Shown here: in pieces, positions 2,420 to 64,000 of the stretch
Layout of the letters: every line of letters starts with the position of its first letter
How positions within the stretch are numbered: position 1 is the stretch's first letter
Source of the DNA: Escherichia phage T4
Strand: one strand, 5' to 3'
DNA: 64,000 bases
Sequence record: NC_000866.4
Notes under the pieces: model-generated
Databases searched by the model: none
What the model saw: the letters and a program-made list of their open reading frames with translations, nothing else
Told to the model about the DNA's origin: nothing
Made by a program: the position numbers and the translations under genes

Positions 2420-3703
2420 ATGGCTAAAATCAACGAACTTCTGCGCGAATCAACCACAACGAATAGCAACTCAATCGGTCGCCCAAATCTCGTTGCTTTG
2501 ACTCGCGCTACCACTAAATTAATATATTCTGACATTGTAGCAACGCAAAGAACTAATCAACCTGTTGCTGCTTTTTATGGTATCAAATACCTTAACCCAG
2601 ACAACGAATTTACATTTAAAACTGGTGCTACTTACGCTGGCGAAGCTGGATATGTAGACCGAGAACAAATCACAGAATTAACAGAAGAGTCTAAATTAAC
2701 TCTCAATAAAGGCGATTTATTCAAATATAATAATATCGTTTATAAAGTATTAGAAGATACTCCATTTGCTACTATCGAAGAAAGTGATTTAGAATTAGCT
2801 CTTCAGATTGCAATCGTTCTTTTAAAGGTTCGTCTATTTTCTGACGCAGCGTCAACAAGCAAATTTGAAAGCTCTGATAGTGAAATTGCGGATGCTAGAT
2901 TCCAGATTAATAAATGGCAAACTGCAGTTAAATCTCGTAAACTTAAAACTGGCATCACAGTTGAATTAGCGCAAGATTTAGAAGCAAATGGATTCGATGC
3001 TCCTAATTTCTTGGAAGATTTGCTTGCAACTGAAATGGCAGATGAAATCAATAAAGACATTCTGCAGTCTTTGATTACAGTGTCAAAACGCTATAAAGTT
3101 ACAGGAATTACTGATAGTGGATTCATCGATTTGAGTTATGCATCTGCTCCTGAAGCTGGTCGTTCATTATACCGAATGGTATGTGAAATGGTTTCGCATA
3201 TCCAAAAAGAATCAACTTATACAGCAACGTTCTGTGTTGCTTCAGCTCGTGCCGCTGCGATTCTTGCTGCATCAGGCTGGTTAAAACATAAACCAGAAGA
3301 TGACAAATATCTTTCACAAAATGCCTACGGGTTCTTAGCTAATGGTTTACCGCTTTATTGCGATACTAACAGCCCATTAGATTATGTAATCGTTGGCGTA
3401 GTAGAAAATATCGGTGAAAAAGAAATTGTTGGATCAATTTTCTATGCTCCGTATACAGAAGGTCTCGACTTAGATGACCCTGAACATGTAGGTGCATTTA
3501 AAGTTGTTGTTGATCCAGAAAGCTTACAACCATCTATCGGTTTATTAGTTAGATATGCTTTATCAGCAAATCCTTATACTGTAGCAAAAGATGAAAAAGA
3601 AGCAAGAATAATTGACGGTGGAGACATGGATAAAATGGCAGGTCGTTCAGATTTGTCTGTTTTATTAGGTGTTAAGCTACCAAAAATTATCATTGATGAA
3701 TAA
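2420..3703 (+). CDS. 24: Capsid vertex protein gp24
   Basis: 427-aa ORF, ATG verified; paralogous to gp23 (shared ...VELAQDL... block); position after gene 23. Confidence 0.95.
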   Translation: MAKINELLRESTTTNSNSIGRPNLVALTRATTKLIYSDIVATQRTNQPVAAFYGIKYLNPDNEFTFKTGATYAGEAGYVDREQITELTEESKLTLNKGDLFKYNNIVYKVLEDTPFATIEESDLELALQIAIVLLKVRLFSDAASTSKFESSDSEIADARFQINKWQTAVKSRKLKTGITVELAQDLEANGFDAPNFLEDLLATEMADEINKDILQSLITVSKRYKVTGITDSGFIDLSYASAPEAGRSLYRMVCEMVSHIQKESTYTATFCVASARAAAILAASGWLKHKPEDDKYLSQNAYGFLANGLPLYCDTNSPLDYVIVGVVENIGEKEIVGSIFYAPYTEGLDLDDPEHVGAFKVVVDPESLQPSIGLLVRYALSANPYTVAKDEKEARIIDGGDMDKMAGRSDLSVLLGVKLPKIIIDE

Positions 3704-3708
3704 AACAA

Positions 3709-3730
3709 AGGGACCTTTCGGTCCCTTTTT
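3709..3730. terminator. Hairpin between convergent genes 24 and rnlB (likely bidirectional terminator)
   Basis: AGGGACC-tttc-GGTCCCT followed by T-run on plus and U-rich run on minus. Confidence 0.6.
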
Positions 3731-3732
3731 AT

Positions 3733-4737
3733 TTAACTTACCAACTCAATCCAAGCTGGACGAAGTACATCTTGTACCATTTTAACTAATTCCTTTTTAA
3801 TCAAAGAAGGATTATCTGCTTGAGTTAGAGTAATACCTTCACGAGAAGTTTCTTCCAAAATATCTTGAACAGTTAGCCCCATCACCTTTCCAAAATCCTT
3901 TGGACCAATTTCGCCAATTTTAGAAATAACGTTATTTACGCGGTTCAGTGTAACGTAACAAGCTAAAATTCCCACCAATTTGTTATCAGCTTCTGATAGC
4001 TCAACTTTAGCTTTAATAGGCTTATCAGACTTTTTCTTTTCACTAAATTTAGAGTTCTTGCATTTAATCGCTACACGATTTCCATTACGAAGCCAAGAAG
4101 GATAACAAGGTTTCAATACATATCCTTCAGCAGTAAATACTTCGCCTTTTGCTTCGGCATTCCAAACGCATTTATTTGCATCAACTAATCCAGCATGGTC
4201 TACTGTAAAATTATAATCTTGGACGACAGAATCTAAATCATTTGGCAATTTAATAAGCTCTTCAAATTTACCGCGACCTAAAAGTGGAGCCATTTTAAAT
4301 TTAAATGTATTACAGAATGATTCCATCATATAATCATCTACATAAGTCACATCACCGCTTTCTGTAGTAACAATAATGTCAAATACATAAAAATCTTTAT
4401 CACAATAATCAACATTCTTCTGAATGCCAGGTCCAGCGAATTCGCCAAAGACTTGATAAGATACAACCGCTGAGGTTTCCATAATATCTTGTACAGCTTT
4501 AATGGAATCAGCATAATTCTTCAAAATAATTTCATACCCAAAGAAATCTTCAGCAGGAAGAATCGGTCCAGTGCGTTTAGCGCAAGTCACTTTATCACGC
4601 TCAATAATCAATGAGAAATTTGTGCCGTGAATCTTTTCACGAGCTACCCACTCCCCACCAGTCAATCCCAAGCTATAAAGTTTTTCAATAAATTTAGAGT
4701 TGTAATGATTTTCAAGACTGCTATACTTTTTAAACAT
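3733..4737 (-). CDS. rnlB: RNA ligase 2 (Rnl2)
   Basis: 334-aa ORF; nucleotidyltransferase lysine motif EKIHGTN; matches T4 Rnl2 in size and position. Confidence 0.92.
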
Positions 4738-7773: not shown

Positions 7774-9537
7774 ATGGATATTAAAGTACATTTTCACGAC
7801 TTCAGTCATGTACGCATCGATTGTGAAGAGAGCACGTTCCACGAATTAAGAGATTTCTTTTCGTTTGAGGCCGATGGATATAGATTTAATCCTCGCTTCA
7901 GATATGGCAACTGGGATGGACGAATCCGTCTTTTAGATTATAATCGTCTTCTTCCATTCGGCTTAGTCGGGCAAATTAAAAAATTCTGTGATAATTTTGG
8001 CTATAAAGCCTGGATTGACCCACAAATTAACGAAAAAGAAGAATTATCAAGAAAAGATTTTGATGAATGGCTTTCTAAATTAGAAATCTATTCAGGAAAT
8101 AAAAGAATTGAACCGCACTGGTATCAAAAAGATGCAGTGTTCGAAGGATTAGTTAATCGTCGTAGAATTCTTAATCTTCCAACATCTGCAGGTAAATCTT
8201 TAATTCAAGCTTTGCTTGCGCGATATTATTTGGAAAATTATGAAGGTAAAATTCTTATCATTGTTCCAACAACTGCTCTGACAACTCAGATGGCTGATGA
8301 CTTCGTCGACTATCGTTTATTCAGCCATGCAATGATAAAGAAAATTGGTGGCGGAGCATCAAAAGATGATAAATATAAAAATGATGCACCAGTCGTTGTT
8401 GGTACATGGCAAACTGTAGTAAAACAACCGAAAGAATGGTTCTCACAGTTTGGAATGATGATGAATGATGAATGCCATCTTGCTACAGGAAAAAGTATTT
8501 CATCTATCATATCAGGTTTAAATAACTGCATGTTCAAATTCGGTTTGTCTGGTTCATTACGTGATGGCAAAGCCAATATCATGCAGTATGTTGGAATGTT
8601 TGGTGAAATATTTAAACCAGTAACGACTTCTAAATTAATGGAAGATGGACAAGTAACTGAGCTAAAAATTAATAGTATTTTTCTTCGCTATCCCGATGAG
8701 TTCACTACTAAATTAAAGGGAAAAACTTACCAAGAAGAAATAAAAATTATTACTGGGCTTAGTAAAAGAAATAAATGGATCGCTAAATTAGCTATTAAGC
8801 TTGCGCAAAAAGATGAAAACGCTTTTGTCATGTTTAAACATGTATCGCATGGTAAAGCTATTTTCGATTTAATTAAAAATGAATACGATAAAGTTTATTA
8901 CGTATCAGGGGAAGTTGATACCGAAACCCGCAATATAATGAAAACCTTAGCTGAAAATGGTAAAGGAATAATTATAGTAGCTAGTTATGGTGTATTTTCT
9001 ACTGGTATTTCAGTTAAAAATCTGCATCACGTTGTTTTAGCGCACGGTGTTAAATCAAAAATCATTGTATTACAAACAATCGGTCGTGTATTACGTAAGC
9101 ATGGTTCTAAGACAATAGCAACAGTCTGGGACCTCATAGATAGCGCAGGCGTCAAGCCAAAATCTGCTAATACGAAAAAGAAATATGTTCATTTGAACTA
9201 TCTTTTAAAACACGGCATTGATCGTATTCAGCGCTACGCAGATGAAAAATTTAATTACGTAATGAAAACAGTTAATTTAATAAGCTTCGGCCCTTTGGAG
9301 AAAAAGATGTTACTAGAATTTAAACAATTTCTTTATGAAGCTTCTATTGATGAATTTATGGGTAAAATTGCCTCTTGTCAAACATTAGAAGGTTTAGAAG
9401 AACTTGAAGCTTATTATAAGAAAAGAGTCAAAGAAACTGAATTAAAAGATACTGATGACATCTCTGTGAGAGATGCTTTGGCAGGAAAAAGAGCTGAATT
9501 AGAAGATTCAGACGATGAAGTAGAAGAAAGCTTTTAA
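7774..9537 (+). CDS. uvsW: UvsW DNA/RNA helicase (SF2)
   Basis: 587-aa ORF, ATG verified; Walker A LPTSAGKS and DECH box (MMMNDECH). Confidence 0.93.
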   Translation: MDIKVHFHDFSHVRIDCEESTFHELRDFFSFEADGYRFNPRFRYGNWDGRIRLLDYNRLLPFGLVGQIKKFCDNFGYKAWIDPQINEKEELSRKDFDEWLSKLEIYSGNKRIEPHWYQKDAVFEGLVNRRRILNLPTSAGKSLIQALLARYYLENYEGKILIIVPTTALTTQMADDFVDYRLFSHAMIKKIGGGASKDDKYKNDAPVVVGTWQTVVKQPKEWFSQFGMMMNDECHLATGKSISSIISGLNNCMFKFGLSGSLRDGKANIMQYVGMFGEIFKPVTTSKLMEDGQVTELKINSIFLRYPDEFTTKLKGKTYQEEIKIITGLSKRNKWIAKLAIKLAQKDENAFVMFKHVSHGKAIFDLIKNEYDKVYYVSGEVDTETRNIMKTLAENGKGIIIVASYGVFSTGISVKNLHHVVLAHGVKSKIIVLQTIGRVLRKHGSKTIATVWDLIDSAGVKPKSANTKKKYVHLNYLLKHGIDRIQRYADEKFNYVMKTVNLISFGPLEKKMLLEFKQFLYEASIDEFMGKIASCQTLEGLEELEAYYKKRVKETELKDTDDISVRDALAGKRAELEDSDDEVEESF

Positions 9538-16850: not shown

Positions 16851-17812
16851 TGTATTCTTTAGAGGAATTTAATAATCAAGCAATAAACGCAGATTTCCAA
16901 CGTAATAATATGTTTAGCTGCGTTTTTGCGACAACTCCATCAACTAAAAGCTCTTCGTTGATAAGTTCAATTAGCAACTTTTCTTATAATAACTTGGGCC
17001 TAAATTCAGATTGGTTAGGATTAACTCAAGGTGATATTAATCAGGGAATTACCACGCTAATTACAGCTGGCACACAAAAACTGATAAGAAAATCAGGAGT
17101 CAGTAAATATCTTATTGGTGCCATGAGTCAACGTACAGTTCAAAGTTTATTAGGCTCATTTACAGTTGGTACATATTTAATTGACTTCTTTAACATGGCA
17201 TATAACTCATCTGGATTGATGATATACTCTGTAAAAATGCCAGAGAATAGATTATCCTATGAAACTGACTGGAACTATAATTCTCCTAATATTCGTATAA
17301 CCGGAAGAGAATTAGACCCTTTGGTTATTTCATTTAGAATGGATTCAGAAGCTTGTAACTATCGTGCAATGCAAGACTGGGTTAACTCCGTTCAAGACCC
17401 AGTAACTGGACTGCGTGCTTTGCCACAAGATGTCGAGGCAGATATTCAGGTTAATCTTCATTCTCGCAATGGATTACCTCATACTGCGGTGATGTTCACG
17501 ATGCATTCAATATCAGTGAGCGCTCCTGAGTTATCATATGATGGAGATAACCAAATAACTACATTTGATGTTACTTTTGCGTACAGAGTGATGCAGGCTG
17601 GAGCAGTTGATAGGCAACGTGCGCTTGAATGGCTTGAATCTGCTGCTATAAATGGTATTCAAAGCGTTCTCGGAAATAGTGGAGGTGTTACTGGACTATC
17701 TAATTCGCTTTCACGACTTAGTAGATTAGGGGGAACTGCAGGAAGCATTTCAAACATTAATACTATGACAGGAATTGTCAATTCGCAGAGTAAAATATTA
17801 GGAGCAATATAA
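16850..17812 (+). CDS. 54: Baseplate-tail tube initiator gp54
   Basis: 320-aa ORF; position match. Confidence 0.9.
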   Translation: MYSLEEFNNQAINADFQRNNMFSCVFATTPSTKSSSLISSISNFSYNNLGLNSDWLGLTQGDINQGITTLITAGTQKLIRKSGVSKYLIGAMSQRTVQSLLGSFTVGTYLIDFFNMAYNSSGLMIYSVKMPENRLSYETDWNYNSPNIRITGRELDPLVISFRMDSEACNYRAMQDWVNSVQDPVTGLRALPQDVEADIQVNLHSRNGLPHTAVMFTMHSISVSAPELSYDGDNQITTFDVTFAYRVMQAGAVDRQRALEWLESAAINGIQSVLGNSGGVTGLSNSLSRLSRLGGTAGSISNINTMTGIVNSQSKILGAI

Positions 17813-31438: not shown

Positions 31439-33024
<1,586 letters not shown>

Positions 33025-33051
33025 AATAAAATGGGCCTTGCGGCCCACTCC

Positions 33052-33554
33052 TTAAAAGTATTTTTTAAAACTCATCATAACTTTATCATCAACATCATTA
33101 TCAATCTGTGCAACAAGGTAAGATGACAGTTCTACTTCTTGCGGCGCGGATTGAACATTATCAGAATTAAGATATTCACGAATCCAAGGATATGGATGTT
33201 TAACCGGAGCATCGGTAATTGGGCATGGAAGACCGCACTGTTTCATACGAGATACAGTTAAGTAATCAATAAAGCTCCACATGCTATTTGTATTTAATCC
33301 AGGAACATCACCATCTTTAAATAAATGAACTGCCCAGTCTTTTTCCTGGCGGTTAACTTCCATGAAAATATCAACTGCTTCTTGTTCACACTCTTGGGCA
33401 ATTTTAACCCATTCATCACCATCAGTACCGGATTGAAGTTGACGAATAATATATTGGGTGCCTTTAAGGTGAAGCTGTTCATCACGTGCAATGAACTTCA
33501 TAATCTTGGCATTACCTTCCATGATTTCCATGTTCTTATGGAAGTTAAAGGTAC
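33052..33554 (-). CDS. nrdB: Ribonucleotide reductase small subunit NrdB, exon 2
   Basis: C-terminal NrdB sequence (MEGNAKIMKFIARDEQLHL...); 3-prime splice site placed after intron-terminal G so the junction reads VSFA-C-TFNF. Confidence 0.85.
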
Positions 33555-34152
33555 CGTATGTTCGATTGAGCTCGCTAATTCTCAACCCGTTCTCTTATGA
33601 ACTGCTGCATGTTACCATGCAGTCCAGACTATATCACAATCCCGGAGGGATTCTCCCCATTTCGAGTCGCTTGACCCTACGTCCGAAGACTAGTCGTTGA
33701 ACCTTGTTTTGCAATTGTCGCCGTGCCATCGTTTATATGTTGATGGTGATAAATCTTTCTTATCACAATATGGACAATTCAATTGAATTCTATTTGGATT
33801 TAATTTACATCTGTCATTATGTTTTAGATAAAATCCAGGACCTTTACCAATGTGACCACAGAAATCACATGTGATTTCTTTTTGTGCAGGATGGGTCCCG
33901 TTCTTAACCATTTCTAATGTTTTTGCTGATGTTCTTTTCTTATGTTCTTCCATCAGAATCTTTAGGTATAGGTCCGTTAGCATCTATCCAAATTTTTCTA
34001 TAGTTCAATTGTGCATCCTCTTAAAAGTATAATCATATTTATATTATACTAATTAAAGGTGCAAGCAAAACCTTGGCTGCTAGTTTTCCATAAAGGACTT
34101 TCCAGCAATTAAAGGAGTTTTCGATAAACGTTACCGTTTAAAGGCGCATTTT
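33555..34152 (-). mobile_element. Group I self-splicing intron in nrdB (598 nt)
   Basis: in-frame stop immediately after exon 1; exon 1 ends in U and intron ends in G; core blocks shared with the td intron; contains an endonuclease-remnant ORF. Confidence 0.85.
33690..33983 (-). pseudogene. I-TevIII: Truncated intron endonuclease remnant (I-TevIII-like)
   Basis: 97-aa intron ORF with CxxC...CxxC zinc-finger-like motifs and no recognisable nuclease domain. Confidence 0.7.
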
Positions 34153-34816
34153 ACGCAAAAGATACATAAAAACGAATAGCTTCTAAGGCATTAATAACGT
34201 GCAAACAGAGGTAAAGAGATTTCATCAGATCTCGTTTAGCTCTTTGCTCAACGTCTTTATCAGCTAGAATTAGACCTTGGTCTTTATAATATTCAACCAT
34301 GTCTTTAGCATTTTCCCATTCACGGGTTTTAACCAAGACATCATCGTAATATCGCCCAATGGACTCAGCACGTTTCATAATAGCTTCATCTAATACAATC
34401 TCATCAAACACCTTCGATGGATCAGTATAAAGATTTCGCATGATATGAGTATATGAACGACTGTGAATAGTTTCACTAAAAGTCCATGTAGCAACCCATG
34501 TATCAAGGCTTGGGTCTGAAATTAATGACATAAGTACAGCAGATGGCGCACGACCCTGAATGCTATCCAAAAGTGATTGATACTTCAGGTTGTTAGTAAA
34601 AATATTTTGCTGATACTGAGGAAGCTTATTAAATTGCGCAGCATCCATCATTAAGTTTACTTCTTCAGGACGCCAAAAAAAACTGATCTGCCGCTCAATG
34701 AGTTCTTCAAATACTCGATGTCGTTGAATATCATATCGAGCTAAACCTAATCCAGAACCAAAGAACATCGGTTCATTCAAAACATCAACTGGATTTGTAT
34801 TAAAAACTGTACTCAT
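34153..34816 (-). CDS. nrdB: Ribonucleotide reductase small subunit NrdB, exon 1
   Basis: N-terminal 221 aa of NrdB, ATG verified; ends ...ALEAIRFYVSFA. Confidence 0.88.
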
Positions 34817-35064
34817 TTAGAATCCTTAAATTTACATTTATCATAATGCCATCTTAAAGCATTGCCTTTATTAACTTTCTTACCACAGTGCGGGCAAGGT
34901 GGATACTCTGCTCCTTGTTTAGTTCTCAAAGAAATCAAATCACGGGTTTCTTTAGTATGAGGAACATCTCTTGTCGGAGAAATTGTACCATACATCGGAT
35001 TAAGCACGCCGACTTTAGCAGCAGCTATATTCTTTTTAGCTTCTTCAGTTTTAGGCTTTCTCAT
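34813..35064 (-). CDS. small Zn-ribbon / NUMOD-like protein (nrdA.1-type position)
   Basis: 83-aa ORF with CPHCGKK and TKETRDLISLRTKQG motifs resembling homing-endonuclease DNA-binding modules. Confidence 0.5.
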   Translation of the reverse strand: MRKPKTEEAKKNIAAAKVGVLNPMYGTISPTRDVPHTKETRDLISLRTKQGAEYPPCPHCGKKVNKGNALRWHYDKCKFKDSK

Positions 35065-35087
35065 CTTTTTCTTAGGTTTCTTCGCTT

Positions 35088-35513
35088 TTAGCCCTTCCTT
35101 TGGTTGCCGCCGATATTTTGTGTTTGGTTTCTTCTGTTAAACGCAGACCTGTTTTCGCTTTTTGACATTTTCAGTCTCGTTTCTTCAGAAATGACCGTAC
35201 CTTTGCGAAATTGCGAATTTAACTTCTTTGCATGGGCATATATTTTAGAATGAACTTTATAATGACGTTTCTTAGTTCCTTTCATATTGCACATCATGAA
35301 AAATGCGAATATAACAGATTTTACCGGATAAATCTTTGATAAAATAGCATGCGCTATAAAATGCTCTCTAGCTGTTAATTCAACTAAATTTTCTTTATCA
35401 TCAGAACCTCCCATGCATCTAGGGATTATATGATGTGTCTCTTTATATTCGGATAAAGGTTCCCGAGCCTGAGCTCGGGAAATTAGGTCGTTATAGATTT
35501 TTTGATAATTCAT
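35088..35513 (-). CDS. mobE: HNH homing endonuclease (MobE-like)
   Basis: 141-aa ORF with HNH motif HHIIPRCMGGSDDKENLVELTAREH; lies between nrdA and nrdB. Confidence 0.8.
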   Translation of the reverse strand: MNYQKIYNDLISRAQAREPLSEYKETHHIIPRCMGGSDDKENLVELTAREHFIAHAILSKIYPVKSVIFAFFMMCNMKGTKKRHYKVHSKIYAHAKKLNSQFRKGTVISEETRLKMSKSENRSAFNRRNQTQNIGGNQRKG

Positions 35514-37777
35514 TACAATTTACACGCTGCACAATCATCGGCTTTAGGAGTTTCTATTTCATAATCATCAGTACCAGAACCATCACGGGTATTATGATAA
35601 TAGAAATTTTTAATGCCATAATACCATCCGTATAGCATGTCATCAATCATTATTGACATTGGAACCTTTCCTTTTGGAAAAATCTGCGGGTCATAATATG
35701 TATTCGCTGAAGCTGATTGACATACCCATTTCAGCATAATAGCTACCTGCGTAAGATAAGGTTTATTACCTTTCTTAGCTAATTTCCATGTATAATCATA
35801 GAGGTCTATGTTATGCTCAATATTGGGCACGACTTGATTAAAGGAACCCTCTTTTGATTCTTTAACACTTACCGGTCCACGTGGAGGCTCGTAGCCGTTT
35901 GTACTGTTAGAAACTTGGGAAGATGACTCACATGGCATAAGTGCTGATAATGTGCTATTACGGATGCCAAATAGCTTAAGGTCTTCCCGCAGCGCCGACC
36001 AGTCACAAACGTATTTTGGAGCTGCGATTTGGTCAATCTTTTTATTGTACCAGTCGATAGGTAATTCGCCTCGAGACCAACGAGTGTCTGAATAATATTC
36101 CGAAGGTCCTTTTTCTTTGGCGAGCTTAATGGATGCTTTAATGAGTCCATACTGTAATCTCTCAAATAGTTCATGTGTTAAATCGTTAGCATCTTCATAA
36201 GAAGCAAAGTTACTTGCCAGCCAAGCTGCATAGTTGGTAACACCTACACCGAGGTTACGACGCTTTTTAGCTTTTTCTGCTTCAGGAACCGGATATCCTT
36301 GGTAATCCAACAGATTATCAAGAGCACGAACTTGAACTTCTGCCAATTCATTAATTTTATCTTGGTCTTGCCAGTCAAAATTATCTAATACGAATGCAGA
36401 GAGAGTACACAATCCAATTTCAGCATCAGGGCTATTCACATCATTTGTTGGAATAGCAATTTCACAGCACAAGTTACTCTGACGAATAGGTGCCTTTTCA
36501 CGAATAAACGGAGTATAGTTATTCGTATTATCAATGAACTGCACATAAATCCTTGCTGTTCCTGAACGTTCAGTCATGAGCAATTCAAATAGTTCACGGG
36601 CTTTAATACGCTTTTTACGAATATTAGGGTCTTTTTCTGCTGCTTCGTATAATTCACGGAAACGGTCTTGGTCTTTAAAATAAGAATAATAAAGCTCGCC
36701 ACCCATTTCATGCGGACTGAACAAAGTAATGTAATCGTTTTTTCCAAAACGTTCCATCATCAAATCATTCAGTTGAACACCATAATCCATATGACGAATG
36801 CGGTTTTCTTCTACGCCTTTGTTATTTTTCAAAACGAGAAGATTTTCAACTTCCAAATGCCAAATAGGATAATAAGCAGTAGCAGCGCCGCCACGAATTC
36901 CACCCTGTGAACATGATTTAACTGCAGTCTGAAAATGTTTCCAAAAAGGAATAACACCAGTATGGCGTACTTCACCCATGCCAATCTTAGAACCTTCGGC
37001 ACGAATCATACCAACGTTAATACCAATTCCAGCGCGTTTAGAGATATATTCAACAATTGAAGCAGAAGCCTTATTGATAGACTTCAATGAATCTCCTGCC
37101 TCAATAACAACACATGAACTAAACTGTCGAGTCGGAGTACGACAACCAGCCATAATAGGAGTTGGCAATGAAATCTGTCGAGTTGATACTGCTTCATAAA
37201 AACGGATAACATGTTTTAATCTATCAACAGGTTCATCTTGATGCAGTGCCATTCCAATAGTCATAAATGCAAACTGTGGAGTTTCATAAATTTGACCAGT
37301 GGTTTTATCTTTAACTAGATATTTTTCTTTTAATTGCATTGCCCCGGAATAAGTAAATTCCATATCCCGTTCGTGCTTAATTTTTGATTCTAAAAATGTA
37401 ATTTCTTCTGCTGAATATTTTGACAATAATTCAGGGTCGTATTTACCTGCATTTACACAATAAGAAATATGGTCAATAAATGAACGTGGTTCATACTGCC
37501 CATAAACATGCTTACGAAGAGCAAACATTAAACAGCGTGCAGCTACATATTGATAATCAGGTTCTTCAACCGAAATAGAATTCGCAGCAGCCTTAATGAC
37601 AATAGTCTGAATATCATCAGTTGTCATTCCATCACGGAGATAAGATTTAATATTTTCATATAATTCATAAGGATCTACTGATGTTCCTTCAGCTGCCCAA
37701 GATAAAACTTTAATAATTTTTTGTGGGTCAAAGCTCTGAGAAACACCACTACTTTTGATAACATTAATTAATTGCAT
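35513..37777 (-). CDS. nrdA: Ribonucleotide reductase large subunit NrdA
   Basis: 754-aa ORF with ATP-cone N-terminus and class I RNR catalytic motifs; C-terminal CAACKL tail. Confidence 0.95.
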   Translation of the reverse strand: MQLINVIKSSGVSQSFDPQKIIKVLSWAAEGTSVDPYELYENIKSYLRDGMTTDDIQTIVIKAAANSISVEEPDYQYVAARCLMFALRKHVYGQYEPRSFIDHISYCVNAGKYDPELLSKYSAEEITFLESKIKHERDMEFTYSGAMQLKEKYLVKDKTTGQIYETPQFAFMTIGMALHQDEPVDRLKHVIRFYEAVSTRQISLPTPIMAGCRTPTRQFSSCVVIEAGDSLKSINKASASIVEYISKRAGIGINVGMIRAEGSKIGMGEVRHTGVIPFWKHFQTAVKSCSQGGIRGGAATAYYPIWHLEVENLLVLKNNKGVEENRIRHMDYGVQLNDLMMERFGKNDYITLFSPHEMGGELYYSYFKDQDRFRELYEAAEKDPNIRKKRIKARELFELLMTERSGTARIYVQFIDNTNNYTPFIREKAPIRQSNLCCEIAIPTNDVNSPDAEIGLCTLSAFVLDNFDWQDQDKINELAEVQVRALDNLLDYQGYPVPEAEKAKKRRNLGVGVTNYAAWLASNFASYEDANDLTHELFERLQYGLIKASIKLAKEKGPSEYYSDTRWSRGELPIDWYNKKIDQIAAPKYVCDWSALREDLKLFGIRNSTLSALMPCESSSQVSNSTNGYEPPRGPVSVKESKEGSFNQVVPNIEHNIDLYDYTWKLAKKGNKPYLTQVAIMLKWVCQSASANTYYDPQIFPKGKVPMSIMIDDMLYGWYYGIKNFYYHNTRDGSGTDDYEIETPKADDCAACKL

Positions 37778-38094
37778 AAGTCCTCAACTTGAAAATCGTC
37801 TTTAAACAATCGGTTAACTATATGAGCTATTATATCACCATGACACGGCTTTGGTTTACATGTGCATCCTAGCCTCATTCCACGTAAAGGCTCTAAATGT
37901 GCTTTAGTTATTTCTCCGGATTTAATTCGACGTATAAAATCTTTTTTGAATAATTCAATGGCAGCCTCCCGGCTGCCAGCATCTTTACCGACGTAATTTC
38001 CCCAAAATGTACCGCGGTGAATATTAACATCAAAGTCGGATTTATATTTATTCACTACCCGGCATAGACGGCCCACGCTGGAATAATTCGTCAT
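37768..38094 (-). CDS. hypothetical Cys/His-containing protein
   Basis: 108-aa ORF, ATG verified; motif [11 protein letters not shown]. Confidence 0.55.
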
Positions 38095-38311
38095 ATTGTT
38101 TTTCCGTTAAAACAGTAATATCGTAGTAACAGTCAGAAGAAGTTTTAACTGTGGAAATTTTATTATCAAAATACTCACGAGTCATTTTATGAGTATAGTA
38201 TTTTTTACCATAAATGGTAATAGGCTGTTCTGGTCCTGGAACTTCTAACTCGCTTGGGTTAGGAAGTGTAAAAAGAACTACACCAGAAGTATCTTTAAAT
38301 CGTAAAATCAT
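38048..38311 (-). CDS. hypothetical protein
   Basis: 87 aa from ATG at 38311 with GAGGA ribosome-binding site; track ORF begins at upstream TTG. Confidence 0.55.
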
Positions 38312-38331
38312 ATATCCTCGCAATAATAAAA

Positions 38332-38643
38332 TTACACCGCCATCTTTCCTTTAATAGGAGGGTGTGATACATAGTTGTTAAGAACGAAATCTTTAGGCCT
38401 AAGTTTAAGAACATATTTTAATTGTTCTTTAGTAGAAAGATATCGGAATTTATAAGGTAGACCACTTATTACCAGCTCACAAAGCTCTTTAGGTTCACGC
38501 CTCAAAATTTCTTTACATTGTTCTACGTGATTCATATAGATATGAGTATTACCACCAGAAAATATCAAATCCCCTGGAATAAGATTACACATCTTAGCTA
38601 CAATATGAACTAACGTAGCATATGACGCAATATTAAACGGTAG
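38332..38643 (-). CDS. td: Thymidylate synthase, exon 2
   Basis: C-terminal thymidylate synthase sequence [11 protein letters not shown]...; the ATG at 38644-38646 is the last 3 nt of the intron. Confidence 0.9.
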
Positions 38644-39660
38644 CATTATGTTCAGATAAGGTCGTTAATCTTACCCCGGAATTATATCCAGCTGCATGTC
38701 ACCATGCAGAGCAGACTATATCTCCAACTTGTTAAAGCAAGTTGTCTATCGTTTCGAGTCACTTGACCCTACTCCCCAAAGGGATAGTCGTTAGGCATTT
38801 ATGTAGAACCAATTCCATTTATCAGATTTTACACGATAAGTAACTAATCCAGACGAAATTTTAAAATGTCTAGCTGCATCTGCTGCACAATCAAAAATAA
38901 CCCCATCACATGAAATCTTTTTAATATTACTAGGCTTTTTACCTTTCATCTTTTCTGATATTTTAGATTTAGTTATGTCTGAATGCTTATGATTAAAGAA
39001 TGAATTATTTTCACCTGAACGATTTCTGCATTTACTACAAGTATAAGCAGAAGTTTGTATGCGAACACCGCACTTACAAAACTTATGGGTTTCTGGATTC
39101 CAACGCCCGTTTTTACTTCCGGGTTTACTGTAAAGAGCTTTCCGACCATCAGGTCCAAGTTTAAGCATCTTAGCTTTAACAGTTTCAGAACGTTTCTTAA
39201 TAATTTCTTCTTTTAATGGATGCGTAGAACATGTATCACCAAACGTTGCATCAGCAATATTGTATCCATTAATTTTAGAATTAAGCTCTTTAATCCAAAA
39301 ATTTTCTCGTTCAATAATCAAATCTTTCTCATATGGAATTTCTTCCAAAATAGAACATTCAAACACATTACCATGTTTGTTAAAAGACCTCTGAAGTTTT
39401 ATAGAAGAATGGCATCCTTTTTCTAAATCTTTAAAATGCCTCTTCCATCTCTTTTCAAAATCTTTAGCACTTCCTACATATACTTTATTGTTTAAAGTAT
39501 TTTTAATCTGATAAATTCCGCTTTTCATAAATACCTCTTTAAATATAGAAGTATTTATTAAAGGGCAAGTCCTACAATTTAGCACGGGATTGTCTACTAG
39601 AGAGGTTCCCCGTTTAGATAGATTACAAGTATAAGTCACCTTATACTCAGGCCTCAATTA
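38644..39660 (-). mobile_element. Group I self-splicing intron in td (about 1.0 kb) carrying I-TevI
   Basis: intron begins UAAUUGAGGCCUGAGUAUAAGGUGACUUAUACUUG right after exon 1 and ends ...AACAUAAUG before exon 2. Confidence 0.92.
38791..39528 (-). CDS. I-TevI: Intron-encoded GIY-YIG homing endonuclease I-TevI
   Basis: 245 aa from ATG at 39528, N-terminus MKSGIYQIKNTLNNKVYVGSAKDFEKRWKRH; track ORF extended 43 codons upstream into intron sequence. Confidence 0.93.
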   Translation of the reverse strand: MKSGIYQIKNTLNNKVYVGSAKDFEKRWKRHFKDLEKGCHSSIKLQRSFNKHGNVFECSILEEIPYEKDLIIERENFWIKELNSKINGYNIADATFGDTCSTHPLKEEIIKKRSETVKAKMLKLGPDGRKALYSKPGSKNGRWNPETHKFCKCGVRIQTSAYTCSKCRNRSGENNSFFNHKHSDITKSKISEKMKGKKPSNIKKISCDGVIFDCAADAARHFKISSGLVTYRVKSDKWNWFYINA

Positions 39661-43010: not shown

Positions 43011-43638
43011 GCTGGCATAATTCGCAATACTCTGGGTCTTCGAGAGGTATCCAACCTGAGTTGAAATACTTTACCATCGATTTAGCAGTTGTATCAGTTA
43101 TATTTATATTACCTTTAACTCTTCGCCATCCAGGAGTTTTACCGTACAGATTAGAGGATAATAATAACACATAATTCTCGTAAGCAATATGAGATAATTT
43201 CCAAGACTCTATATTAGCTCGTGATGTTTTCCAAGGTCTAAAATCGTCACGGTTCATATAATTAGCCAATCTCATATGCTCTCTAACTTCCGGGTCTTTG
43301 GCTGGATGAGTTTCACCACTCACACCAAATCCACCACCAGCATATACCAGATTAAAATAGTCTGGATTATCTCTGGCATTTACTTCAAGTTGGTATTTTC
43401 GTTCTGCTTCAATAACATCCAAGTCATCATCAATTTGAATTATTTTAACGCTCGGTTTTTGAAGCATTAGCGCATTCAAAAATCTTTTTTGTTTACATGA
43501 GCTCCAGTATTCCTTTCCGGAAGAGTCATATATTATTCCGTTCTCAAATGAGCAATTTAATTTACTACCGATATAGTAGTATGGCGGAGTCTTATTTTTG
43601 ACACGGTCTTCAAATGTAAACCAATATACTATATTCAT
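43006..43638 (-). CDS. segG: GIY-YIG-family homing endonuclease SegG
   Basis: 210-aa ORF, ATG verified, between genes 32 and 59; motif YYYIGSK. Confidence 0.7.
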   Translation of the reverse strand: MNIVYWFTFEDRVKNKTPPYYYIGSKLNCSFENGIIYDSSGKEYWSSCKQKRFLNALMLQKPSVKIIQIDDDLDVIEAERKYQLEVNARDNPDYFNLVYAGGGFGVSGETHPAKDPEVREHMRLANYMNRDDFRPWKTSRANIESWKLSHIAYENYVLLLSSNLYGKTPGWRRVKGNINITDTTAKSMVKYFNSGWIPLEDPEYCELCQL

Positions 43639-63061: not shown

Positions 63062-64000
63062 TTATTTAAATTGTTCAGTAACGTCTTCAACTACTTCATA
63101 TTGGCAGGTACGCATTTTAGCATCGTTGTAATCAATCGGAATTGATACTACATCGCGAGGATGAACTTTAACTTTTACAACTCGGCTGGTTGAACTACCA
63201 AAGTGACGAATATAAGATTTAGAACACACATGCAAACCACGAGAACAAGTTTGTGTATCATCGTCATTCACACGAGTACGTGGCATTTTAACTACTTTAC
63301 CCGGACTGTTATCAAAGGTGTTTGAGTGACAGTCAAAGTAATTGCTGCGAACTACTTTCCAAGCATAGAAGTAACCATCTTCTGTAATTTCAATATCGTT
63401 TGCTACCAAGAAATCAAAGAGTCGAGATACCGCTTTTTGGCTTGGGTTTTCCAACAGATTTTCCAAGAACGGAAAATAAAATTCAAAGTTTTCGCCTTTT
63501 TCCATCGAGTCAAGAATACGATCAACCAAACCAGACCGCAATTCAATATTTTGATAGAACAAGCTTCCACCTTCAATTCGAACATCGCCGGAAATATATT
63601 TTTCAACAGCACGACGAACATTAATTTTTTGTGCCGCTTCTTCCAACTTATCCGCTACAAGCAGATTAAGAATTTCCTGGAAGTTTGAATGAGTATTAGG
63701 AGTTGCGTTATAAGTTACGCCATCAACAGTAATTGAAATGAATTTTTTAGATGCATTCCAAATAATGTCAGATTTAGCAACTGGAGCAATAACTGCATCG
63801 CTATTAACTTTAACTGTAATATCACCGCTAATAGTAACTTTAGGGCGTTTAGCTTCTTCAGCATTTTTCAAAACACGACGGATTGTGTCAACCGATACAC
63901 CTTGCCAATCAGCCAATTCCTGTTGGGTGTAATTACCACTTGAATACAGTTTAACAATTTCAGCTTGTTCGTTTTTGGTCAGGCATTTAATATTGTACAT
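63062..64000 (-). CDS. rIIB: rIIB rapid-lysis / Rex-exclusion protection protein
   Basis: 312-aa ORF recognised as T4 rIIB; its ATG is the last 3 nt of the window. Confidence 0.92.
   Translation of the reverse strand: MYNIKCLTKNEQAEIVKLYSSGNYTQQELADWQGVSVDTIRRVLKNAEEAKRPKVTISGDITVKVNSDAVIAPVAKSDIIWNASKKFISITVDGVTYNATPNTHSNFQEILNLLVADKLEEAAQKINVRRAVEKYISGDVRIEGGSLFYQNIELRSGLVDRILDSMEKGENFEFYFPFLENLLENPSQKAVSRLFDFLVANDIEITEDGYFYAWKVVRSNYFDCHSNTFDNSPGKVVKMPRTRVNDDDTQTCSRGLHVCSKSYIRHFGSSTSRVVKVKVHPRDVVSIPIDYNDAKMRTCQYEVVEDVTEQFK

What the first reader, a model, noticed from the sequence alone, without database searches (positions are those of the whole stretch)
34813..35513. HNH endonuclease gene between nrdA and nrdB followed by a separate small Zn-ribbon/NUMOD-like ORF
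The 141-aa ORF carries a clear HNH motif and ends with a NUMOD-like stretch (GTVISEETRLKMSKS). The 83-aa ORF just downstream, in another frame, carries a second NUMOD-like stretch (TKETRDLISLRTKQG) and a CPHCGKK zinc-ribbon motif. Together they look like one homing endonuclease (nuclease plus DNA-binding tail) split by a frameshift, or a nuclease with a separately encoded DNA-binding partner.
Basis: partly seen in the sequence, partly recalled or inferred. Interest (0 to 1): 0.45.

Follow-up and report, generated by a model that had tools for sequence, protein, structure and literature searches.

The report
T4 mobE split by sequence errors
The two small genes are really one already-studied phage T4 homing endonuclease gene (mobE, 232 amino acids) that looks broken only because this old reference sequence carries two extra bases that no re-sequenced T4 has.

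Summary
On the minus strand between nrdA and nrdB the window has a 141-aa HNH ORF (35088-35513) and an 83-aa NUMOD3/zinc-finger ORF (34813-35064) in different frames.

The window is the last 64 kb of the compiled phage T4 reference, AF158101. Here it is 100% identical to the GenBank entries X04140 (1986) and J03968 (1988).

All 18 other phage records that cover this T4-type gene lack two bases present in the window. These include 13 independent T4 genomes and RB55/RB59. The extra bases are one A in an A5 run (35159-35163) and one C (35075/35076).

Deleting those two bases reproduces the annotated mobE of T4T exactly: 699 nt, 232 aa. It encodes an HNH domain, five NUMOD3-like repeats and an invariant CCHC finger. 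Thirty-one residues, including the best-conserved repeat, lie in a third frame that neither ORF of the window reads.

Illumina data from a 1972 T4 stock support both deletions (8011:0 and 8151:0 reads). MobE is already characterised experimentally (Wilson & Edgell 2009).

The split itself is an artefact of the deposited sequence, not biology. The "separate DNA-binding partner" reading is rejected. Interest is low.

The parts
34813..35513 (-). mobE, the whole gene. It is 701 nt in the window and 699 nt (232 aa) in every re-sequenced T4.
   Evidence: T4T and MT984581 annotate one CDS across this interval. Removing two bases from the window reproduces the T4T CDS exactly.
35088..35513 (-). The 141-aa ORF as it reads in the window. 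Residues 1-118 are true MobE. The last 23 residues (SENRSAFNRRNQTQNIGGNQRKG, about 35088-35159) are out-of-frame translation.
   Evidence: common prefix of 118 aa.
34813..35064 (-). The 83-aa ORF, equal to MobE residues 150-232 (M150 to K232). It is not a separate gene.
   Evidence: MT984581 carries it as a leftover 'hypothetical protein' nested inside the full mobE CDS.
35159..35163 (-). Spurious base 1. The run is AAAAA on the coding strand where all other T4 records have AAAA. This equals AF158101:140061 CT>C, 'mobE c.355delA p.Ser119fs'.
   Evidence: Read support is 8151:0 in the supplement of Subedi & Barr 2021. The extra base is present in both X04140 and J03968.
35075..35076 (-). Spurious base 2. 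The coding strand reads AACC where all other T4 records have AAC. This equals AF158101:139977 AG>A. In the window it creates the TAA stop that ends the middle frame.
   Evidence: Read support is 8011:0. Among the historic entries it is present only in X04140.
35077..35158 (-). Hidden middle segment of MobE, read in a third frame in the window. With the flanking codons it gives A119-K149 (AKTGLRLTEETKHKISAATKGRAKSEETKKK), which contains NUMOD3 repeats 2 and 3.
   Evidence: tblastn places the 232-aa protein on the window as aa 1-121 in frame -3, aa 115-146 in frame -1 and aa 142-232 in frame -2.
35349..35435 (-). HNH catalytic core (H27 H28 ... N42 ... H51 ... H55).
   Evidence: Pfam HNH. These residues are invariant in 42 homologues. 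A profile of the family hits the solved HNH nucleases McrA, a group II intron maturase and Cas8-HNH.
34912..35204 (-). Five NUMOD3-like repeats, pattern [ST]xE[TAE]xx[KLN][IM], at aa 109, 126, 143, 155 and 186. Window coordinates: r1 35150-35204, r2 35096-35149, r3 35056-35095, r4 34990-35055, r5 34912-34959.
   Evidence: Pfam NUMOD3 gives 3 stretches at E 4.9e-12 on the restored protein. On the window's ORFs it gives one stretch (83-aa ORF) and none (141-aa ORF).
34834..34896 (-). C-terminal CCHC zinc finger (C206-x2-C209-x12-H222-x3-C226).
   Evidence: All four ligands are invariant in 42 homologues. The finger resembles the two fingers of the I-TevIII remnant and gives weak profile hits to zinc fingers and ribbons.
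35460..35481 (-). Hairpin of the weak intrinsic terminator inside the 5' end of mobE (9-bp stem, 4-nt loop).
   Evidence: Predicted fold of -16.7 kcal/mol, z -4.0. It was shown experimentally to terminate 30-50% of transcripts (PMC2790892). The simple terminator scan missed it because the T run is short.
35511..35515 (-). The nrdA stop (TAA, 35513-35515) overlaps the mobE start (ATG, 35511-35513), giving UAAUGA. No promoter lies directly upstream.
   Evidence: Sequence. Translational coupling is proposed in PMC2988022. Co-transcription with nrdA is shown in PMC2790892.
34813..34816 (-). The mobE stop (TGA, 34813-34815) overlaps the nrdB start (ATG, 34814-34816), giving ATGA. There is no intergenic spacer.
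   Evidence: Sequence.
34823..34863 (-). nrdB promoter and RBS embedded in the zinc-finger codons of mobE: -35/MotA-box AATGCTT at 34857-34863, -10 TATGAT at 34840-34845, RBS at 34823-34826.
   Evidence: Feature table of X04140 converted to window coordinates. Reading AATGCTT as a MotA box rests on my own knowledge of the T4 middle-promoter consensus.

Best explanation
The interval 34813-35513 (minus strand) is the phage T4 gene mobE. It is a single free-standing homing-endonuclease gene encoding one 232-aa protein: an N-terminal HNH nuclease domain, five short NUMOD3-type DNA-binding repeats and a C-terminal CCHC zinc finger.

In this window the gene appears as a 141-aa ORF, an unread 31-codon segment and an 83-aa ORF. 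The cause is two extra bases (an A in an A-run at 35159-35163 and a C at 35075/76). They come from the 1986/1988 sequence entries that were pasted into the compiled T4 reference genome. They are most probably gel-reading errors. Less probably they were mutations in the clones that were sequenced. Either way they are absent from T4 phage.

How the real gene works:
- (Shown in the literature) mobE has no promoter of its own and is co-transcribed with nrdA.
- (Proposed in the literature, from the UAAUGA overlap seen in the sequence) It is translated by coupling to the nrdA stop.
- (Shown in the literature) It is damped by a weak terminator 27 nt into its coding region.
[quoted passage not shown] Recombinational repair from the T4 copy then copies mobE into the recipient, together with the neighbouring nrdB intron and its defunct I-TevIII.
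- (Inferred) The NUMOD3 repeats and the zinc finger, that is the part the window presents as a separate ORF, form the DNA-binding tail that positions the nuclease.
For: (1) Identity of the window. X04140 (3058 nt) and J03968 (3359 nt) are 100% identical to window 32295-35352 and 35086-38444. The AF158101 variant positions 139977 and 140061 map onto window 35074-76 and 35158-63 with a single offset of 104,903.

(2) All 18 phage records that cover at least 80% of window 34700-35650 are 2 nt shorter there. They include 13 T4 genomes, RB55, RB59, ELT1, mogra, ECO4 and KAW3E185. Only the two historic entries share the extra bases.

(3) Deleting one A and one C from the window gives a sequence identical to the annotated 699-nt mobE of T4T.

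(4) Illumina reads of the 1972 T4-Hancock stock are 8151:0 and 8011:0 for the shorter alleles (supplement of PMC8573959). Three T4 stocks differ from AF158101 at about 172 sites but from each other at 13 or fewer.

(5) The restored protein is the family norm.
- PHROG 655 covers the two ORFs with adjoining profile segments.
- 520 phage records hold at least 80% of the 232 aa, and every such row among the 60 listed is a single tblastn piece.
- Most of the 120 listed homologues are about 200-300 aa and match 98-100% of the query.
- The HNH residues and the CCHC finger are invariant in 42 full-length homologues.
- NUMOD3 rises from one stretch to three, E 4.9e-12.
- The AlphaFold2 model of the 232-aa protein has mean pLDDT 86.5 with no segment below 50.

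(6) The pattern of differences between window and T4T over 49.9 kb is 86 columns, including about 9 swaps of adjacent bases and isolated 1-nt indels. This is typical of manual gel reading, a judgement from my own knowledge.

(7) Function: PMC2790892.
Against: Site 1 is present in two GenBank entries from different laboratories (X04140 and J03968). If the two were read independently, that argues for a base physically present in the sequenced DNA rather than a misreading. I could not establish whether the 267-nt overlap was determined twice or copied.

Wilson & Edgell report that intact mobE cannot be cloned in expression vectors. Clone-selected frameshifts are therefore a plausible alternative origin.

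The DNA-binding role of the NUMOD3/zinc-finger tail is inferred from family annotation only. Whole-model fold searches gave nothing significant, and no solved structure of a close relative was found.

In the literature MobE's activity is shown in vivo only, never with purified protein.
Confidence: 0.9

Rival explanations
1. The two extra bases were physically present in the DNA that was sequenced in the 1980s, as frameshift mutations in the plasmid/M13 clones or in that laboratory's T4 stock. They may have been selected because intact MobE is harmful to E. coli. On this reading the window records a real but lineage-specific mobE pseudogene rather than a reading error.
For: Intact mobE could not be cloned in several expression vectors (PMC2790892). 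Site 1 appears in both X04140 and J03968. A-runs are natural slippage sites.
Against: One frameshift would be enough to inactivate the gene, yet there are two.

X04140 begins at window 35352, inside mobE and downstream of the start codon and the first HNH histidines. A clone matching the extent of that entry would not have encoded an active nuclease, so there would have been nothing to select against. This assumes the clone matched the extent of the entry.

The same historic entries also differ from modern T4 by adjacent-base swaps in nrdA, which are reading errors rather than mutations.

No re-sequenced stock carries the extra bases, including a 1972 stock and the strains KJ477684-6.
Confidence: 0.08
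2. This is a genuine two-protein system: a short HNH nuclease (141 aa) plus a separately translated 83-aa NUMOD3/zinc-finger DNA-binding partner.
For: The 83-aa ORF starts with ATG and carries a complete NUMOD3 repeat and a zinc finger. Some database records list an 83-aa protein on its own (P0002; nested CDS in MT984581).
Against: The arrangement exists only in the historic sequence. In all other T4 records that ATG is the in-frame codon M150 of a continuous ORF.

The last 23 residues of the 141-aa ORF are out-of-frame. The best-conserved NUMOD3 repeat would be untranslated.

Homologues are single polypeptides.

No Shine-Dalgarno-like GGAG/AGGA lies within about 15 nt upstream of that ATG (direct reading of the sequence).
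Confidence: 0.015
3. Programmed recoding: ribosomes shift frame twice to make full-length MobE from the sequence as written.
For: Site 1 is an A-rich, potentially slippery run (UCA AAA AGC).
Against: Two successive +1 shifts would be needed. The second site (AAC CUA AG) has no known shift signal (from my own knowledge).

A programmed shift would be conserved. Instead every relative and every other T4 record has the plain in-frame sequence.
Confidence: 0.005

Closest known systems
MobE of phage T4 as annotated in re-sequenced genomes (T4T HM137666 ADJ39953.1; MT984581 QPI17457.1) and characterised by Wilson & Edgell 2009
   Same: It is the same gene. After removing two bases the window is 100% identical to the 699-nt CDS. 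It has the same position between nrdA and nrdB, the same internal terminator and the same overlaps with the nrdA stop and the nrdB start.
   Different: Only the two extra bases. In the window they break the reading frame into three pieces. They also produced the 141-aa 'MobE' and an orphan 83-aa ORF in the old annotation.
MobE of T6 and many T6-like Tequatroviruses (213 aa, e.g. AXN58263.1)
   Same: Same locus and same architecture: HNH, NUMOD3 repeats and a CCHC finger. About the first 55 and the last 84 residues are nearly identical.
   Different: The central part has diverged and carries deletions, giving 72% identity overall and one repeat fewer.
Other T4 HNH 'mob' endonucleases (MobA, MobB, MobC) and I-TevIII
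   Same: MobA, MobB and MobC have paralogous HNH modules: 57%, 48.5% and 38.7% amino-acid identity over the N-terminal 76-151 residues, and 77-81% DNA identity over short stretches. I-TevIII has CCHC fingers like the one in MobE.
   Different: They have different C-terminal DNA-binding regions, insertion sites and targets (PMC2988022).
uvsW / uvsW.1 in the same compiled reference
   Same: It is another frame error of the compiled T4 reference inside this very window.
   Different: It is the mirror image. Indels at 9280-9283 fuse two genes into one 587-aa ORF instead of splitting one gene.

Membership tests
Free-standing HNH homing endonucleases of T4-like phages (MobE family, PHROG 655) | HNH (beta-beta-alpha-metal) catalytic motif | tested here: met
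   Pfam HNH at E 2.6e-4 (window ORF) and 2.8e-5 (restored protein), above the cut-off. H27, H28, N42, H51 and H55 are invariant in 42 homologues. The family profile hits solved HNH nucleases.
Free-standing HNH homing endonucleases of T4-like phages (MobE family, PHROG 655) | Nuclease and DNA-binding tail (NUMOD3 repeats, zinc finger) in one polypeptide | tested here: met
   Not met by the window as written, where the gene lies in three frames. Met by every other T4 record and by the window once the two spurious bases are removed. 520 phage records hold at least 80% of the 232 aa, and every such row among the 60 listed is a single piece.
Free-standing HNH homing endonucleases of T4-like phages (MobE family, PHROG 655) | Gene inserted between conserved host genes, with patchy distribution among close relatives | tested here: met
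   The gene lies exactly between the nrdA stop and the nrdB start. Of 595 records that match the region, only 18 carry the T4-type gene at 80% coverage or more, and others carry the T6-type. T2 lacks mobE according to PMC2790892.
Free-standing HNH homing endonucleases of T4-like phages (MobE family, PHROG 655) | Site-specific nicking or cleavage of the allele that lacks the gene, and super-Mendelian inheritance | not testable with these tools
   Reported for T4 MobE in vivo: an HNH-dependent nick in T2 nrdB and an inheritance ratio of 2.1, falling to 1.5 with the deletion of residues 33-62 (PMC2790892). There is no in vitro proof.
Two-component nuclease with a separately encoded DNA-binding subunit | The two ORFs are kept as separate genes in relatives | tested here: not met
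   Relatives and all other T4 records have one continuous ORF.
Programmed ribosomal frameshift gene | The frame change is conserved among relatives and sits at a shift-prone signal | tested here: not met
   No relative has a frame change, and two shifts would be needed.
Natural pseudogene (decayed homing endonuclease, like T4 I-TevIII) | The disabling lesion is present in independent isolates or stocks of the phage | tested here: not met
   It is absent from 13 T4 genome records, including a 1972 stock with read support of 8011:0 and 8151:0.

The most novel reading that the evidence does not exclude
In true T4 the codon that the old annotation used as the start of the 83-aa ORF is an in-frame AUG (M150). 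T4 is annotated with internal-start products in other genes (26', 49', 30.3' in T4T). So an internally initiated 83-aa NUMOD3/zinc-finger fragment could exist. It might compete with full-length MobE for the nrdB site and so act as a built-in damper or immunity factor.

Nothing here supports this, and nothing here excludes it. There is no convincing Shine-Dalgarno sequence, and no promoter is known between the mobE start and M150.
Probability: 0.03. Interest if true: 0.35.

Novelty: already known. Interest (0 to 1): 0.07.

Why it matters
This matters for housekeeping rather than discovery. Anyone who uses the classical T4 reference (AF158101/NC_000866) gets a truncated 141-aa MobE with 23 nonsense residues, an orphan 83-aa 'hypothetical protein', and a false 'intergenic spacer' said to hold the nrdB middle promoter. 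In reality that promoter sits inside the zinc-finger codons of mobE, and the mobE stop overlaps the nrdB start.

The error has spread. MT984581 has a nested 83-aa CDS. Stand-alone 83-aa database entries exist. A review speaks of an intergenic space between mobE and nrdB.

The case also shows that genome scans of this reference will flag other frame artefacts, such as the fused uvsW in the same window.

Tried and rejected
- phmmer of the 232-aa protein against PDB sequences found nothing below E 0.07. The family profile reached only generic HNH domains and zinc fingers. It found neither I-HmuI nor I-TevI.
- The search for homologous proteins with the 83-aa ORF returned only 4 hits, which is too few to judge architecture. 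The 232-aa query was informative.
- The simple terminator scan found nothing in the region, although the published hairpin is there.
- Literature searches for an explicit statement that the reference mobE contains sequencing errors found none in Wilson & Edgell 2009 or in the 2010 reviews. Sandegren et al. 2005 is not held. The two variants are listed only in the supplementary variant table of Subedi & Barr 2021.
- I considered and rejected programmed frameshifting, a two-gene nuclease/partner system, and a natural pseudogene (see the rival explanations and the membership tests).

Full report
**What is in the window.** On the minus strand, nrdA (35513-37777) is followed by a 141-aa ORF (35088-35513), a 23-nt gap, an 83-aa ORF in another frame (34813-35064) and nrdB exon 1 (34151-34816). 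The neighbourhood identifies phage T4: td with its I-TevI intron, nrdA, nrdB with the truncated 97-aa I-TevIII, denA, rnlA and pseT. The 141-aa ORF matches Pfam HNH just above the cut-off and PHROG 655 'homing endonuclease' at E 6.5e-52. The 83-aa ORF matches Pfam NUMOD3 (E 1.7e-5) and the same PHROG at E 1.6e-8. The two matches occupy adjoining stretches of that one profile, positions 27-164 and 163-234.

**The split exists only in this sequence.**
- A megablast of window 34700-35650 against 50,697 phage records found 18 records that cover at least 80% of it. In every one the matching interval is 2 nt shorter than the query (949 against 951, or 910 against 912). These records include 13 T4 genomes, the near-identical isolates RB55 and RB59, and the wild relatives ELT1, mogra, ECO4 and KAW3E185.
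- A focused search with window 35040-35200 gave the same picture. All 18 genome records have 159 nt where the window has 161. Only two records are 100% identical to the window: X04140 (T4 nrdB, 1986) and J03968 (T4 nrdA, 1988).
- T4T and MT984581 annotate one 699-nt CDS, mobE, running from the nrdA stop to the nrdB start. T6 has a 642-nt mobE in the same place.
- Alignment shows the window has one extra A in an A-run (35159-35163) and one extra C (35075/35076). Deleting those two bases reproduces the T4T CDS exactly.
- tblastn of the 232-aa protein on the window gives aa 1-121 in frame -3, aa 115-146 in frame -1 and aa 142-232 in frame -2.
- The 141-aa ORF shares only its first 118 residues with MobE, and its last 23 are out-of-frame. 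The 83-aa ORF is MobE 150-232. Thirty-one residues (A119-K149) lie in a frame that neither ORF reads. They include the repeat LRLTEETKHKISAATKGR, which matches the strongest part of the family consensus.

**Where the extra bases come from.**
- X04140 (3058 nt) and J03968 (3359 nt) are 100% identical to window 32295-35352 and 35086-38444. In this region the window is simply those two entries joined together.
- The supplementary variant table of Subedi & Barr 2021 (PMC8573959) lists, for Illumina reads of a 1972 T4 stock mapped to AF158101, '139977 AG>A, 8011:0' and '140061 CT>C, 8151:0, mobE c.355delA p.Ser119fs'. With one offset of 104,903 these fall exactly on window 35074-76 and 35158-63. 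That offset places window base 64000 at 168,903, the length of AF158101. The window is therefore the last 64 kb of the compiled reference.
- That paper found about 172 differences between AF158101 and each of three T4 stocks, but 13 or fewer among the stocks. It concluded that the reference probably contains artefacts.
- Petrov et al. 2010 state that NC_000866 was compiled from data of many laboratories.
- My own comparison of the window with T4T over 49.9 kb found 86 differing columns. These include about nine swaps of adjacent bases (for example TA/AT at 35892-3 and CG/GC at 36101-2 in nrdA) and isolated 1-nt indels. This pattern is typical of manual gel reading, which is my own judgement.
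- One caveat remains. Site 1 lies in the overlap of both historic entries. Wilson & Edgell also report that intact mobE could not be cloned in expression vectors. A mutation carried by the clones cannot be excluded for that site. Either way the lesion is not in T4 phage.

**What the gene is and how it works.**
- The restored 232-aa protein has the HNH core (H27, H28, N42, H51, H55). It has five repeats of the NUMOD3 type at residues 109, 126, 143, 155 and 186, and a C-terminal CCHC finger (C206, C209, H222, C226).
- The catalytic residues and the four zinc ligands are invariant in 42 full-length homologues of 38-76% identity.
- 1,990 database proteins match at E of 1e-5 or better. Most of the 120 listed are about 200-300 aa and match 98-100% of the query. 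520 phage records hold at least 80% of the protein, and every such row among the 60 listed is a single tblastn piece.
- An AlphaFold2 model has mean pLDDT 86.5 and no disordered segment. It predicts a compact N-terminal domain followed by a chain of short helices and a small finger.
- Function is known from experiment (PMC2790892). mobE has no promoter and is co-transcribed with nrdA. A hairpin 27 nt after the AUG (window 35460-35481; -16.7 kcal/mol, z -4.0) terminates 30-50% of transcripts. [quoted passage not shown]
- The overlap UAAUGA with the nrdA stop suggests translational coupling (PMC2988022; sequence).
- That the NUMOD3/finger tail is the DNA-binding module is an inference from family annotation and from the authors' bipartite model. 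It has not been shown directly.

**Consequences of the correction.** There is no spacer between mobE and nrdB, because the mobE stop overlaps the nrdB start (ATGA, 34813-34816). The nrdB promoter annotated in X04140 (-35 at 34857-34863, -10 at 34840-34845) lies inside the codons of the zinc finger. It does not lie in an 'intergenic space' as written in a review. MT984581 still carries the 83-aa ORF as a nested 'hypothetical protein'.

**Rivals.**
- A real lineage-specific pseudogene or clone mutation is possible for the DNA that was sequenced, but it is irrelevant to wild-type T4 (confidence 0.08).
- A two-protein nuclease/partner system is contradicted by every relative (0.015).
- Programmed frameshifting would need two shifts and would be conserved, and it is not (0.005).

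**Verdict.** The thing itself is the well-known MobE, and the split is an artefact of the historic reference sequence that was already corrected in later T4 genome records. The finding is already known and of low interest, apart from being a warning about the reference.

Noticed in passing
window 7774-9537 (+); indels at 9280-9283: uvsW reads as one fused 587-aa ORF in the window. In T4T the same region is annotated as uvsW (9397 minus 7889 plus 1 nt; a 502-aa ORF by the ORF listing) plus a separate uvsW.1. This is the mirror image of the mobE case: small indels of the compiled reference fuse two genes.
   Followed up: partly
window after 5070 (T4T locus L005 5153-5185, gene 24.3): A 33-bp in-frame segment present in T4T is absent from the window. 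Its cause was not examined (deletion in one stock, repeat collapse or error).
   Followed up: no
window 9142-3, 12264-5, 14205-6, 17618-9, 18497-8, 35892-3, 36101-2, 40116-7, 40768-9: Adjacent-base swaps (AG/GA, GT/TG, AT/TA, CG/GC) relative to T4T, several of them inside nrdA. There are also 1-nt indels at 1652, 11810/11813, 17499-17507, 17830, 28334 (in cd.2) and 39567 (td intron upstream of I-TevI). These are probably further errors of the compiled reference.
   Followed up: partly
window 34834-34896 (mobE finger) and 33690-33983 (I-TevIII remnant): The CCHC finger of MobE (CPHCGKKVNKGNALRWHYDKC) resembles both fingers of the truncated I-TevIII encoded in the neighbouring nrdB intron (48% identity over 23 aa, pairwise E 2e-4). 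The two HNH endonucleases that target nrdB thus share a finger type.
   Followed up: partly
window 34813-35513 compared with T6 (L003 1613-2254): T4 and T6 MobE are mosaic. About the first 55 and the last 84 residues are nearly identical, and the DNA is also nearly identical there. The middle (residues about 56-148) has diverged and carries deletions. The conserved 3' end also carries the nrdB promoter, which may explain its conservation.
   Followed up: no
window 35330-35450, compared with T4T 3565-3789 (mobA), 38379-38666 (mobB) and 43082-43525 (mobC): The HNH-coding part of mobE shares 77-81% DNA identity over 53-121 nt, and 39-57% protein identity, with the other T4 mob genes. This explains the 'second place' reported in T4 records by the DNA search.
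   Followed up: yes
window 34823-34863 (-): The nrdB -35/MotA-like box, -10 box and RBS annotated in X04140 lie within mobE coding sequence. The 'intergenic space' between mobE and nrdB mentioned in a 2010 review does not exist in the corrected sequence.
   Followed up: yes
window 38791-39657 (-): The mechanical ORF that contains I-TevI extends to 288 aa from a TTG, whereas the annotated I-TevI is 245 aa (T4T 143708-144445). The upstream extension runs into td intron sequence, so this is only an ORF-listing effect.
   Followed up: no
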